64,000 nucleotides of DNA, from positions 16,058,001 through 16,122,000 of the forward strand of contig OZ024764.1 in NCBI GenBank assembly GCA_964016885.1. The letters are read 5' to 3'. Position numbers and translations under genes: made by a program. Numbering within the stretch: the stretch's first letter is position 1; every line of letters begins with the position of its first letter. Of this stretch, positions 35,142 through 42,078 are shown in pieces. Source of the stretch: Eledone cirrhosa. Its lineage: Eukaryota. The notes beneath the pieces were generated by a model that was given only the letters and a program-made list of their open reading frames with translations, made no database searches and was not told where the DNA came from.

Positions 35142-35900
35142 TACATACAGAGTGGTCCCCAAAAAAGTAAACTTTGATTCCCTGCTCAGGCAACATCTAT
35201 AAGAATGCTGTTGATATGTGTATACATTTTTAGGGGACACCCTGTGTATGATGATGATGATGATGTATATATATATCTATATATGACACCCTGTGTATGA
35301 TGATGATGTATATATATATATAACACCCTGTGTATGATGATGATGTATATATCTATATATGACACCCTGTGTATGATGATGTATATATATATATATATCT
35401 ATATATATATGACACCCTGTGTATGATGATGTATGTATATATATATATGACACCCTGTGTATGATGATGATGTATATATCTATATATGACACCCTGTGTA
35501 TGATGATGTATATATATATATATATCTATATATATATGACACCCTGTGTATGATGATGATGTATGTATATATATATATATATGACACCCTGTGTATGATG
35601 ATGTATGTATATCTATATATGACAGCCTGTGTATGATGATGTATATATATATATATATATATATGACACCCTGTGTATGATGATGATGATGTATATATAT
35701 ATGACACCCTGTGTATGATGATGATGTATGTATATCTCTCTCTCTTCCAGGTAGAAAGCTGTGAGAAAGTGGAAGTTACCATCAATGGGACAGCTGTTAA
35801 CCCCTCCTCTGAACAATGGTACAACCCATTTCACACTGACTACTACAGCCCTGTGTGGATATCCTTTTTACCAGCACTACTACTACTACTACTACTACTA

Positions 35901-35931
<31 letters not shown>

Positions 35932-36014
35932 CACTACTACTACTGCTACTACCACTACTGCTACTACTACCACTATTACTACCACTACTACTACTACTAC
36001 CACTACTACTACTA

Positions 36015-36075
<61 letters not shown>

Positions 36076-39000: not shown

Positions 39001-40554
39001 ACATCACTCTCTACTGTAGTGTCCGTATACAAGACCCCACTCTCCACTGTAGTGTCCTTATATAAGACCCCACTCTCTACTGTAGTGTCCTTATATAAGA
39101 CCCTACTCTCTACTGTGGTGTCCATATACAAGACCCCACTCTCTACTGTAGTGTCCTTATATAAGACCCCACTCTCTACTGTAGTGTCCTTATATAAAAC
39201 ATCACTCTCTACTGTAGTGTCCGTATACAAGACCCCACTCTCCACTGTAGTGTCCTTATATAAGACCCCACTCTCTACTGTAGTGTCCTTATATAAGACC
39301 CTACTCTCTACTGTGGTGTCCATATACAAGACCCCACTCTCTACTGTAGTGTCCTTATATAAGACCCCACTCTCTACTGTAGTGTCCTTATATAAGAGGC
39401 CCTCAGTACATTACTGGTACTTTATTTTATCGACCTCGTAAGGATGAAAGGCAAAGTTAACCTCGGCGGGATTTGAACTCAGAATGGCAAGGGCCGTAAC
39501 TCTTTGCGTCAAAACATGGCGTCCGACCCTCTACCGATACTGCCAATCTACTGCCCTAATAATATTAATAATAATAATAATTTTAGATAATAGAGTTATG
39601 GCCCTTTACGTTCTGAGTTTATATCCCGCTGAGGTTAACTTTGCCTTTCATCCTTACGGGGTCGGTAAAATATAGTACCAGTAATACACTGGGGTAATTT
39701 CTGGCCTTGTGCCAAAAGTAGAAAAAAATTATTATTATTATTTTTATCTTTTGTTGTATTTCAGAAAGTAAAATGGCGATAGAAAACCAGATAAAGTCAT
39801 TGAGTGGCAGTGAAAGTAAAGTTGTACTTAAGGGACTTGATGTCTCTACAGTTTATCATCTGGAACATCTTATGTCAGTTCCAGATCTGGACTTCTCCTC
39901 CAACAACATCTCTTGTCTACACATGTTTGCCTATCTACAGTGTGTGCAGCACCTGAACCTCGACCACAACTGGGTCACATCTGTTGAGGGCCTCCACCAT
40001 CTGCCAGACCTCACACGCCTATCCCTCTCTCACAACTGTATCCTTTCCGCTTACTTTCTATGCTTTGTTTGTGTTTACTGTGTTTCAGTGTATGTCCGTG
40101 CTGTGGCACTACCACCAGGGGGAGCTATGGTGAGACCAACACCAGGGGGAGCTGTAGTGGCACCACCACCACTGTATATATATATATATGATGGGGGCAC
40201 ATGGCTTAGTGGTTAGAGCATTGGCCTTGCAATCGAAAGGTTGTGAGTTCAATTCTCGGACCGGGTGATGTGTTGTTTCCTTGAGCAAGACACTTTATTT
40301 CACATTGCTCCAGTTTACTCAGCTGTAAAAATGAGATGATAGGGACTGGGGTCCCTATCATTCCACTGCAAAGTGGTCGTGGAGGTGCCACGGCAAAAAA
40401 GCACCCAGCACTCACTGTAAATAAGGTTGGTGTTAGGAAGGGCATCCAGCTGTAGAAATCAAGCCAGAACCAGTTCTTGTCCCACCCCTGCAAGCAGGGA
40501 AAAGCGGACGTAAAGTGATGATGATGATGATATATATATATATATATACACTGG

Positions 40555-40585
<31 letters not shown>

Positions 40586-42078
40586 GTTTAACAAGGTTCA
40601 ATGAATTCATCAATGAATATAGTTTTACAATAGATTAGAAGCACTCTACAGTAAGGTTTTCTGGAGTTATTAATATTACTTCAAAATATTAATAAATATA
40701 GACATTCATGTGATCAAATATATTTTATTATATATAGTTCAGAGGTACTGAGCTATTTCAACATTACGTCCTCATCAGATAAAATAAGTTGATGTCTGAC
40801 ATACCTTGACTATGTTGATGGTTATAATACTGTCATGACTAAATTATAACCATCAACATAGTCAAGGTATGTCAGACATCAACTTATTTTATCTGATGAG
40901 GACGTACTGTTGAAATAGCTCAGTACCTCTGAAATATGTATAATGATATATATTTGATCACATGAATGTCTATATTTATTAATATTTTGAAGTAATATAT
41001 CATCATCATCATCGTTTAACGTCCATCTTCCACGCTTGCATGGGTTTGGACGGGAGTTTTCCCACTTGAGGCAAGAGTGGTTGTCTTGCTCGCATAGGAC
41101 TGTCTGGCGGTTTTTATACGGCTGGATGCCCTTCCTAACACCAACCACGTTTACAGTGTGGACTGGGAGGTTTTTACCGTGTTACCTACACGGCCACATT
41201 ACAGCGTGGACTGTGTGTTTTTTTTGTCGTGACACCTACACGACCTCATTTGTTTCGGGCTGGATGTTGTGGTACCAACATAACTTTACATTGAAAGGGG
41301 TGGTGTAGATGGCAGTGGGGGTAGTGGGACGGGGGTGTATTTTGTTAGAGGTGCCTACTGACTGTAGTAGGTTTCACTTTGTACTTAGGCAAGGCGGGTC
41401 TTCTGTATAACTGTGTCGCGCCAAAGATCTCGGTCCAGTGACATTGTCTTGGAGAGGTGTAAGTGTGTGAGGTCGGAATTTATCAAGTCTTCCCAGGTTT
41501 TTCTGGGTCTGCCTACTCCGTGGCTACCGTCTATCTTTATTGCCCTGCACTTTTTTATACAGCTGTCATCTTTCATGCGCATCACGTGACCATACCAACG
41601 TAGTCTTCTCTCGAGTAAACAACATCTGATCCCGCTTATTTCTAATTTTTCCCTTAGTTCGTTTATGCTTTCCCGTTCACGTATATTACTATTACACATC
41701 CAGCGGAGCATGCAAGCTTCGTTTCTCTCCAGTCTGCGTATATCCTCTGCACACAATGCCCAGGTCTCACTGCCATGTAACATTGCTGTTCGTATGCAGG
41801 CATCATACAGCCTGCCTTTCATTTTATATATATATATACACACTTTGTTGTTTTGTCTAGCACTATACTTTTAAATGTGTTTATATCTCATTATTGTCCC
41901 TTAACTGTTAACTTCAGCTCTGTCGAGTGTCGAGGACTTGCGCCCTCTCCAGTCATGTGCAGCCCTCAAAGAACTGAATCTAGAAGGTAACCCTCTTGCA
42001 GAAGACGACCCTGAGTATCGCACCTCTGTACGACAGCTTCTACCCCAGCTGACACTGATTGACGGTGAGTCCCAGTAG
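20834..42078 (+). CDS. RABGGTA: Rab geranylgeranyltransferase type II alpha subunit, whole gene (13 coding exons, 1722 nt, 573 aa)
   Basis: Spliced translation [13 protein letters not shown]...[12 protein letters not shown]...[11 protein letters not shown]...DERNFHCWDYRR...[12 protein letters not shown]...[18 protein letters not shown], then the Ig-like region and C-terminal LRRs. All exon phases are consistent. Confidence 0.96.
21545..22115. repeat. GGT/GTA-rich degenerate satellite
   Basis: Direct inspection. Confidence 0.9.
22172..22282 (+). CDS. RABGGTA: RABGGTA exon 2
   Basis: ccag|[37 protein letters not shown]|gtatgt. Confidence 0.95.
22347..23066 (-). repeat. 71-bp array of the same MITE, opposite orientation, starting at an intact TIR
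   Basis: TTAACCCTTTAGCATTTACATTACTCTATATATAC...; reverse complement of the 17905 unit. Confidence 0.9.
23494..23618 (+). CDS. RABGGTA: RABGGTA exon 3
   Basis: tag|[41 protein letters not shown]|gtaggt. Confidence 0.95.
23683..26204. repeat. 51-bp minisatellite, about 49 copies
   Basis: Unit TAGTCCTAGATACACTGTGTCTGTATATAAGACAGGACACATTAGATAATG. Confidence 0.97.
26265..26452 (+). CDS. RABGGTA: RABGGTA exon 4
   Basis: cag|[33 protein letters not shown]...EIDERN|gtaagt. Confidence 0.96.
26460..28685. repeat. GTGTAG-rich satellite (26460-27465) followed by ACC/AAC trinucleotide tract (27570-28685)
   Basis: Direct inspection; fills RABGGTA intron 4. Confidence 0.92.
28712..28912 (+). CDS. RABGGTA: RABGGTA exon 5
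   Basis: cag|[10 protein letters not shown]...[16 protein letters not shown]...EEALLK|gtaatt. Confidence 0.95.
28925..30455 (+). repeat. 61-bp minisatellite (about 23 copies) derived from a CR1/Jockey-like LINE 3' end, followed by that LINE's 3' UTR
   Basis: Unit encodes [20 protein letters not shown], the same as the end of the LINE at 58383-59069. Confidence 0.92.
30531..30614 (+). CDS. RABGGTA: RABGGTA exon 6
   Basis: cag|[27 protein letters not shown]|gtacat. Confidence 0.95.
30750..31830 (+). mobile_element. 5'-truncated L1/Tx1-like LINE (C-terminal zf-RVT CCHC region, frameshifted) with 3' UTR
   Basis: [18 protein letters not shown]...LWGYVE motif; GC-rich; AATAAA near 31822; internal 27-bp x4 duplication. 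Confidence 0.8.
31995..33790. repeat. (CCTA)n degenerate microsatellite
   Basis: Direct inspection. Confidence 0.95.
33824..33906 (+). CDS. RABGGTA: RABGGTA exon 7
   Basis: tag|[27 protein letters not shown]|gtaagt; phases fit. Confidence 0.88.
35751..35858 (+). CDS. RABGGTA: RABGGTA exon 8
   Basis: cag|[45 protein letters not shown] (U12 donor). Confidence 0.88.
36205..37240 (-). mobile_element. RTE-clade LINE 3' fragment with internal 80-bp x8 array (36450-37088)
   Basis: [16 protein letters not shown]...[10 protein letters not shown]...GRPRKTW, with (GAT)n tail. Confidence 0.9.
37520..37863 (-). mobile_element. Composite tRNA-head SINE with RTE-like (GAT)n tail
   Basis: Near-identical reverse complement of 40191-40530. 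Confidence 0.88.
37969..38135 (+). CDS. RABGGTA: RABGGTA exon 9
   Basis: [24 protein letters not shown]...METIF|gttggt. Confidence 0.82.
38330..38418 (+). CDS. RABGGTA: RABGGTA exon 10
   Basis: cag|[29 protein letters not shown]|gttagt. Confidence 0.93.
38685..38813 (+). CDS. RABGGTA: RABGGTA exon 11
   Basis: cag|(W)[12 protein letters not shown]...[13 protein letters not shown]|gtaagt. Confidence 0.93.
38897..39397. repeat. 33-bp minisatellite, about 15 copies
   Basis: Unit AAGACCCCACTCTCTACTGTAGTGTCCTTATAT. Confidence 0.93.
39765..40037 (+). CDS. RABGGTA: RABGGTA exon 12 (LRR domain)
   Basis: cag|SKMAIENQ...LDFSSNNI...[37 protein letters not shown]. Confidence 0.93.
40191..40530 (+). 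mobile_element. Composite tRNA-head SINE with RTE-like tail
   Basis: TGGCTTAGTGGTTAGAGC A-box, GAGTTCAATTC B-box, ends GGACGTAAAGT(GAT)n. Confidence 0.88.
40673..40998. repeat. Long inverted repeat (about 155-bp arms, about 14-bp spacer)
   Basis: Arms are reverse-complementary with few mismatches. Confidence 0.95.
41385..41825 (-). mobile_element. RTE-clade LINE 3' ORF fragment
   Basis: [20 protein letters not shown]...[12 protein letters not shown]...GRPRKTW. Confidence 0.9.
41918..42078 (+). CDS. RABGGTA: RABGGTA exon 13 (terminal; LRR cap)
   Basis: [52 protein letters not shown]; a possible alternative donor g|gtgagt lies at 42065. Confidence 0.9.

What the first reader, a model, noticed from the sequence alone, without database searches (positions are those of the whole stretch)
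35859..41917. Inverted SINE pair inside two U12 introns brackets RABGGTA exons 9-12: candidate minor-spliceosome circRNA or exon-skipping switch
Seen: a roughly 340-bp composite SINE at 37520-37863 (-) ends about 105 nt before the exon 9 acceptor. A near-identical copy at 40191-40530 (+) begins about 155 nt after the exon 12 donor. They are reverse complements, and each lies in one of the gene's only two U12 introns. Established: flanking intronic inverted repeats promote back-splicing and are ADAR substrates, and U12 donors pair only with U12 branch/acceptor sites. Inference: pairing would bring the U12 donor at 40038 next to the U12 acceptor at 37968, giving a 658-nt circle of exons 9-12. 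It would also bring the AT donor at 35859 near the AG acceptor at 41917, giving a frameshifting skip of four exons. The weak AT-AA site could make this a regulated choice.
Basis: partly seen in the sequence, partly recalled or inferred. Interest (0 to 1): 0.8.

Follow-up and report, generated by a model that had tools for sequence, protein, structure and literature searches.

The report
Octopod counterpart of human minor-spliced circle
An octopus-like animal's RABGGTA gene keeps two rare minor-class introns at positions inferred to match the pair that produces a known human circular RNA, and two young jumping-gene copies facing opposite ways sit in them, likely by chance, so a matching low-level RNA circle is predicted here but was not seen.

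Summary
Two SINE copies (324/340 identical, inverted) lie in the two U12 introns of RABGGTA. A spliced contig confirms the rare AT-AA acceptor at 37968. The SINE pair is unremarkable: 14,872 exact 26-mer hits genome-wide, 11 copies in the surrounding 264 kb, and 3 of 40 sampled copies have an inverted partner within 5 kb. The two copies share no derived change. About 1% of same-shaped control intervals hold such a pair.

Its upstream intron is only 105 nt, too short for a SINE. So the old twin-U12 layout, not the SINEs, is the likely driver.

Against a circle here: back-splicing would join a GT donor to an AA acceptor, a pairing absent from 66 catalogued non-canonical U12 introns, and octopus circRNAs are reported scarce. 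The only spliced contig is linear. A low-level by-product circle is about even odds; a regulated switch about 5%.

The parts
35751..35858 (+). RABGGTA exon 8 (ends on a Trp codon, phase 0)
   Evidence: its last 30 letters are the loose end joined to 37969
35859..37968 (+). U12 intron 8, AT-AA subtype, 2110 nt; position inferred orthologous to the human 105-nt GT-AG U12 intron
36190..37240 (-). LINE-like 3' fragment with an internal 80-nt tandem array (36447-37089); its tail is 94% like the SINE tail over 52 nt
   Evidence: LINE label is inferred
37520..37863 (-). SINE copy A, about 2% from the majority of 29 other copies
37950..37968 (+). U12 branch site (branch A 37957) and acceptor region: AG ends 8 nt, AA 11 nt (used), AT 13 nt from the branch A
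37969..38135 (+). exon 9 (167 nt), predicted back-splice acceptor exon
38330..38418 (+). exon 10 (89 nt)
38685..38813 (+). exon 11 (129 nt)
39765..40037 (+). exon 12 (273 nt, LRR), predicted back-splice donor exon
   Evidence: its first 30 letters seen as a loose end
40038..41917 (+). U12 intron 12, GT-AG subtype, 1880 nt; branch A 41904 is 13 nt from the end; position inferred orthologous to the human 666-nt U12 intron
   Evidence: its removal is inferred from the open frame and contig length, not seen directly
40191..40530 (+). SINE copy B: tRNA-like head (Rfam tRNA 25.4 bits, below the 29-bit cut-off), LINE-like tail, ATG-repeat end
40673..40998 (.). self-contained 163-bp hairpin (95% complementary arms) in intron 12
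41918..42110 (+). exon 13, probably the last exon (reads through to a stop at 42076-42078)
   Evidence: the contig's remaining 193 nt would end at 42110, the end of a microsatellite (inferred)

Best explanation
RABGGTA here has two U12 introns at positions inferred to be shared with mammals, it is spliced linearly through its AT-AA intron, and two young SINE copies that likely inserted independently and by chance would pair in the pre-mRNA and likely favour only a low-level, unselected circle of exons 9-12, the predicted counterpart of human hsa_circ_0007750. Mechanism: minor introns are removed slowly (established), so after the short major introns 9-11 are gone the transcript still holds both U12 introns and the intron-12 donor can attack the intron-8 branch site (shown in human, inferred here). 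The roughly 330-bp SINE duplex would shorten that loop and would also be an ADAR target, which tends to unwind it (inferred). Mixed GT/AA termini likely keep the yield low and may shift the junction to the AG 3 nt upstream (661-nt circle) or the AT 2 nt downstream (656 nt).
For: Human back-splice chr14:24735635->24737825 fills 22 of 224 rows of the ENCODE U12-circle table (13 rows seen, all this junction); circle versus linear reads are 29/6, 25/21, 17/10, 14/19 and 12/31 in matched tissues. Both ends coincide with the two catalogued human minor introns (offset 469,206). It is hsa_circ_0007750, validated by divergent primers, Sanger and RNase R. Intron positions match through the rat alignment and the exon-side letters of the mammalian donors. 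U11 and U12 genes are in this genome and complement both sites. Chance origin of the SINEs: 14,872 exact 26-mer hits; 40 of 40 scored copies 97% or more like B; A and B are closer to other copies (mean 97.4%, 97.6%) than to each other (95.6%) and their 6 and 7 substitutions do not overlap; 11 copies in 264 kb and 3 of 40 sampled copies with an inverted partner within 5 kb. Computed duplex energy -645 kcal/mol versus -91 and -115 for each copy alone.
Against: No back-splice was seen: the one spliced contig is linear and unbranched at 37969 (contigs drop rare forms, library type not on record). GT-AA is absent from 66 non-canonical U12 introns; mixed subtypes are described as disfavoured. O. vulgaris circRNAs are reported low overall. 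No Rabggta circle among the 7 rows in the held half of a mouse ES-cell table. On the chance side, a 1% per-gene coincidence at a gene whose human orthologue is a top U12-circle producer is not negligible.
Confidence: 0.5

Rival explanations
1. No circle is made. The AT-AA / GT-AG subtype mismatch blocks cross-pairing of the two U12 introns, and the SINE pair yields at most an edited intronic duplex with no effect on splicing.
For: Only the linear form seen; GT-AA not among 66 non-canonical U12 introns; AT-AG and GT-AC disfavoured and U12 exon skipping rare; the nearby AG is only 8 nt from the branch A against an optimum of 11-13; low circRNA levels in octopus, ascribed to ADAR; SINE pair explicable by chance.
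Against: U12 back-splices often use cryptic acceptors near the annotated one, e.g. MORC3 and TCEA3; an AT at 13 nt offers a GT-AT pairing, of which 7 natural cases are listed; the human circle is abundant; contigs cannot show absence.
Confidence: 0.37
2. The SINE duplex is a co-opted switch: when unedited it drives U12 back-splicing and the matching AT-AG skip of exons 9-12, which frameshifts to a 320-aa protein without the C-terminal helices and LRRs, lowering Rab geranylgeranyl-transferase in a tissue- or ADAR-dependent way.
For: Both copies are full length and within 105 and 153 nt of the sites they would juxtapose; about 1% chance per gene; natural AT-AG U12 introns exist, 20 of 66; repeats are heavily edited in coleoids.
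Against: No shared or compensatory changes between the copies; young, abundant family; AT-AA site is consensus-strong and the only form seen; for the skip, the outer sites stay 1661 and 1387 nt from the duplex; the stop would fall in what is probably the last exon, so no junction-triggered decay (inferred); editing rarely alters splice sites in octopus.
Confidence: 0.06
3. The duplex matters for linear splicing instead: paired, edited SINEs near the branch site and donor slow removal of the two U12 introns and raise intron retention, a mild cost rather than a function.
For: SINE A ends 87 nt from the branch site and SINE B starts 153 nt from the donor; human and mouse RABGGTA minor introns already show measurable retention.
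Against: No retained-intron contig in X1: depth is zero upstream of 37969 (contigs do not show absence). No direct test.
Confidence: 0.07

Closest known systems
Human circRABGGTA, hsa_circ_0007750 (hg19 chr14:24735635-24737825)
   Same: Same gene; back-splice from the second U12 donor to the first U12 acceptor; intron positions inferred identical; span 2190 nt in human versus 2069 nt here.
   Different: Human upstream intron is GT-AG and 105 nt, too short for a SINE; here it is AT-AA, 2110 nt, with a SINE. The human circle is observed and validated; this one is only predicted.
Minor-spliceosome circRNAs (Szabo et al. 2015, PMC4506483: RANBP17, ATXN10, MORC3, TCEA3; about 60 events at annotated U12 sites)
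   Same: U12 donor used in back-splicing; cryptic acceptors near the annotated site are common.
   Different: All human; I found no invertebrate case or mixed-subtype case in the passages read.
Inverted-Alu/SINE-flanked exonic circRNAs antagonised by ADAR (Ivanov et al. 2015, seen only as a cited reference; mechanism recalled)
   Same: Long, near-perfect inverted SINE pair in the flanking introns close to both splice sites.
   Different: Those use the major spliceosome; here both flanking introns are U12.
AT-AA U12 introns (RASGRP4, MSH3, mouse IK; PMC1557818 Tables 2-3)
   Same: AT start, U12 branch, AA end; subtype switching between species is documented.
   Different: Rare (8 of 66 non-canonical); this one is orthologous to a human GT-AG intron.
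tRNA-derived SINEs of molluscs/cephalopods
   Same: tRNA-like head, LINE-like tail, simple-repeat end, TA-rich insertion sites.
   Different: Family not identified: no repeat library was available; a resemblance of the middle part to the CORE domain is recalled, not tested.

Membership tests
U12-type intron (introns 8 and 12) | 5' site RTATCCTTT | tested here: met
   ATATCCTTT at 35859, GTATCCTTT at 40038
U12-type intron (introns 8 and 12) | Branch site CCTTRAC 11-13 nt from the 3' end | tested here: met
   11 and 13 nt; optimum from PMC3584512
U12-type intron (introns 8 and 12) | Intron removed at the predicted ends in RNA | tested here: met
   Intron 8 shown; intron 12 inferred from open frame and contig length
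U12-type intron (introns 8 and 12) | Minor spliceosome encoded in the genome | tested here: met
   U11 2 matches, U12 1 match, over Rfam cut-off; U4atac and U6atac not searched
U12-type intron (introns 8 and 12) | Splicing depends on U11/U12/U6atac | not testable with these tools
   needs knock-down
Exonic circRNA | Back-splice junction in RNA | tested here: inconclusive
   None in one run's contigs over 37912-38890; contigs drop rare forms
Exonic circRNA | RNase R resistance | not testable with these tools
   shown only for the human orthologue
Inverted-repeat-driven circRNA | Reverse-complementary match in both flanking introns | tested here: met
   328 nt, 95%
Inverted-repeat-driven circRNA | Circle depends on the repeats; repeats are A-to-I edited | not testable with these tools
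   no raw reads; SINEs were outside the laid stretch
Co-opted regulatory repeat pair | Rarer than chance | tested here: inconclusive
   about 1% per gene, post hoc; hundreds of inverted pairs expected genome-wide
Co-opted regulatory repeat pair | Shared or compensatory changes keeping the pairing | tested here: not met
   6 and 7 private substitutions, none shared
Co-opted regulatory repeat pair | Insertions conserved in related species | not testable with these tools
   no relative's intron sequence could be obtained
tRNA-derived SINE | tRNA-like head | tested here: inconclusive
   Rfam tRNA 25.4 bits, E 0.061, cut-off 29
tRNA-derived SINE | Short, dispersed, high copy number, tail shared with LINE-like elements | tested here: met
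RABGGTA orthologue | PPTA repeats plus C-terminal LRRs, best match to RabGGTase alpha, single locus | tested here: met

The most novel reading that the evidence does not exclude
The RABGGTA twin-U12 cassette makes the same minor-spliceosome circle in humans and octopods, one of the oldest position-conserved circRNAs in animals. In this lineage a young inverted SINE pair overrides a GT/AA subtype mismatch to keep the circle abundant, through a non-canonical junction that GT-AG-filtered circRNA pipelines would miss.
Probability: 0.15. Interest if true: 0.68.

Novelty: new member of a known kind. Interest (0 to 1): 0.38.

Why it matters
If the circle is found, it would extend minor-spliceosome back-splicing to an invertebrate and tie it to an orthologous human circle that is used as a liver-cancer plasma marker. 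The locus also separates two influences that are confounded elsewhere: human has matched GT-AG ends and no room for an upstream SINE, while this animal has mismatched ends and a strong SINE duplex. One targeted RT-PCR tests whether terminal-subtype mismatch insulates neighbouring U12 introns from each other. If no circle is found, the SINE pair is an ordinary by-product of a repeat-rich genome.

Tried and rejected

Sequencing runs: no RNA holder listed on record; 4 runs of one study. X1 behaves as RNA because its contig skips introns. Only 37912-38890 was laid, so the exon 12 donor, exon 13 acceptor, skip junction and both SINEs were not covered.

Assembly error at the AA: rejected; contigs of X2-X4 span it with no other letter. 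Alternative AG acceptor as main site: rejected; it gives an in-frame stop and the contig uses 37969. Local duplication or gene conversion making the pair: rejected; no shared derived change (the 29 comparison copies were chosen as best hits to B). Translatable circle: 658 is not a multiple of 3 and the frame stops soon after the junction. Rfam miRNA hits on the 40673-40998 hairpin are all below cut-off.

Literature blanks: no paper held 3 of circRNA, U12-type introns, WDR41, VASH2, BROX, RABGGTA; 7 papers hold RABGGTA and circRNA (passages read in 3 of them). The O. vulgaris study's supplements gave no hit, with file 2 of 3 unsearched. The mouse ES-cell table was cut to about half. Dietrich et al. 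2005 on U12 terminal dinucleotides is not held. Earlier scan findings: none.
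Full report
Observation. Copy A (37520-37863, minus) and copy B (40191-40530, plus) agree at 324 of 340 aligned bases and are the only full-length copies in the window. The repeat finder gives 328-nt arms, 95% complementary, 2327 nt apart. 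Using an Octopus sinensis protein as a guide, exons 2-13 were placed and splice into one open frame. The gene is RABGGTA, with PPTA and LRR domains and a single match in the genome. Of introns 2-12, nine have ordinary GT-AG signals and two have U12 signals: intron 8 (35859-37968, AT-AA) and intron 12 (40038-41917, GT-AG), with branch adenosines 11 and 13 nt from their ends. Intron 1 was not located. Exons 9-12 total 658 nt. The genome encodes U11 and U12 snRNAs whose recognition sequences complement these sites.

RNA evidence. Four runs of one study hold exon 12; none is on record as RNA. Laid on 37912-38890, run X1 gave a 1789-nt contig that skips introns 9 and 10 and carries the end of exon 8 directly before 37969, so the AT-AA intron is spliced as predicted. 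Runs X2-X4 span the AA with no variant. No contig brought exon 12 letters to 37969. Contigs drop rare forms and the library type is unknown, so this shows the linear form exists and does not show the circle is absent. The contig's remaining length fits exon 12 plus 193 nt of exon 13, ending at a microsatellite, which suggests exon 13 is the last exon (inference).

Is the SINE pair special? Mostly not. A 26-mer from the middle of the element has 14,872 exact matches in 3.0 Gb, and the reversed control has none. All 40 scored copies are 97% or more identical to B. Against 29 of these (chosen as best hits to B), A and B average 97.4% and 97.6%, higher than their 95.6% to each other. They differ from the majority at 6 and 7 substituted positions, none shared. 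That is the pattern of two independent insertions with no gene conversion or compensatory change. The 264 kb around the gene hold 11 copies of 200 nt or more, about one per 24 kb, including another inverted pair 3 kb apart. I took 40 of the first 100 listed C1 matches (roughly alternate rows). Eight had a second copy within 5 kb, 3 of them inverted, one (L055) in the same geometry as here. Scaled up, that is several hundred inverted pairs genome-wide. Sliding a template with the shape of intron 8, exons 9-12 and intron 12 along the 264 kb, excluding this locus, 40 of 4915 positions held an inverted match of 300 nt at 90%, and 71 of 4915 of 200 nt. These are overlapping windows over a few events, so about 1% is a rough figure. 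That is low for one gene named in advance, but ordinary for a pattern noticed in a scan.

Human RABGGTA has two catalogued minor introns, 105 and 666 nt; mouse has 84 and 629 nt (PMC6717393, supplement rows). The 666-nt intron is hg19 24734970-24735635 (PMC4667643, supplement row), which fixes the offset and puts the first base after the 105-nt intron at 24737825. Szabo et al. (PMC4506483; passages, plus supplement files 7, 10, 11 and half of 15) list the back-splice 24735635 to 24737825 in 22 of 224 rows of their U12-circle table; the 13 rows I saw are all this junction. Circle versus linear reads at the same donor were 29/6 (fetal eye), 25/21 (adult liver), 17/10 and 14/19 (frontal cortex) and 12/31 (child liver); I saw 20 of 27 linear rows. 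Those coordinates are hsa_circ_0007750 (PMC7214155, passages), validated by divergent primers, Sanger sequencing and RNase R (bioRxiv 10.1101/576751, passages). In the alignment with rat RabGGTase alpha, octopod intron 8 falls after the Trp aligned to rat W300 and intron 12 in phase 1 of the codon aligned to rat R519. The exon-side letters of the human and mouse donors fit exactly those codons. The position match is an inference from these pieces, not a gene-to-gene alignment. Because the human upstream intron is 105 nt, a SINE in it is not needed for the human circle.

What argues against the circle here. The human intron after exon 9 is GT-AG (PMC10853781, passages); here it is AT-AA. Back-splicing would join a GT donor to an AA end. 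That pairing is absent from 66 non-canonical U12 introns, which include 20 AT-AG, 8 AT-AA and 7 GT-AT (PMC1557818, passages). A review states that AT-AG and GT-AC mixes are disfavoured, that the branch-to-end optimum is 11-13 nt, and that U12 exon skipping is rare (PMC3584512, passages). The primary mutational study was not available. Escape routes exist: an AG at 8 nt and an AT at 13 nt from the branch, and human U12 circles often use cryptic nearby acceptors. O. vulgaris circRNAs were reported low, consistent with ADAR repression (PMC9699675, passages; one of three supplements unsearched). An earlier human study saw no sign of AT-AC circles (PMC4165365, passages). No Rabggta circle appeared among 7 rows in the held half of a mouse ES-cell table.

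Mechanism. Shown: linear splicing through the AT-AA site, the inverted pair, its abundance and independent origin. Computed: a duplex of -645 kcal/mol against -91 and -115 for each copy folding alone; competing partners for B are shorter and about 81% complementary. Inferred: slow removal of both U12 introns leaves the downstream donor and upstream branch available together; the duplex tightens the loop; ADAR edits and loosens it (repeat editing in coleoids: PMC9068888, passages); mismatched ends keep yield low. The circle would not encode a continuing frame. The skip would give a 320-aa frameshifted protein with its stop probably in the last exon, and its two sites remain 1.4-1.7 kb from the duplex.

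Verdict. Real anatomy, known kind. Low-level by-product circle 0.5, no circle 0.37, retention effect 0.07, regulated switch 0.06. The value lies in the link to the human U12 circle and in a cheap, sharp test of subtype mismatch. I did not find that link stated in text, though the human junction is in a 2015 supplementary table, and supplements I could not see may bear on it. Conservation of the insertions in related octopods remains untested.

Noticed in passing
window 37964-37968: An AG lies 3 nt upstream of the used AA acceptor; using it would put an in-frame stop right after exon 8. It is only 8 nt from the branch A, which probably protects the gene.
   Followed up: partly
P0001 (O. vulgaris protein), residues about 300-320: The public gene model loses the frame at this same intron (exon 9 replaced by unrelated residues), a hint that the intron is non-GT-AG there too.
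   Followed up: no
human chr14:24735635-24737825 (hg19): The liver-cancer plasma marker hsa_circ_0007750 has both ends on catalogued U12 introns; VASH2, WDR41 and BROX top the same U12-circle table.
   Followed up: partly
window 40673-40998 and about 43250-43530: Near-perfect long hairpins (163-nt arms, 95% for the first), probably miniature inverted-repeat elements; the first lies inside U12 intron 12 and would itself be an ADAR substrate.
   Followed up: partly
window 17905-18978 and 22356-23071: Inverted minisatellite arrays (about 91% over 700 nt) bracket exon 2; whether both are transcribed depends on where exon 1 lies (candidates at 10133 and 20834, unresolved).
   Followed up: no
window 39401-39694: Inverted pair of another repeat family (103-nt arms, 87%) inside intron 11, within the predicted circle's span.
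   Followed up: no
window 7339: A U12-like donor motif not assigned to any exon.
   Followed up: no
window 38537-38640: A short element in intron 10 draws summed depth of about 20,000 in the DNA-like runs, so it is a very high-copy repeat.
   Followed up: no
window 38773: G>A difference in runs X2 and X4, a synonymous third position in exon 11.
   Followed up: no
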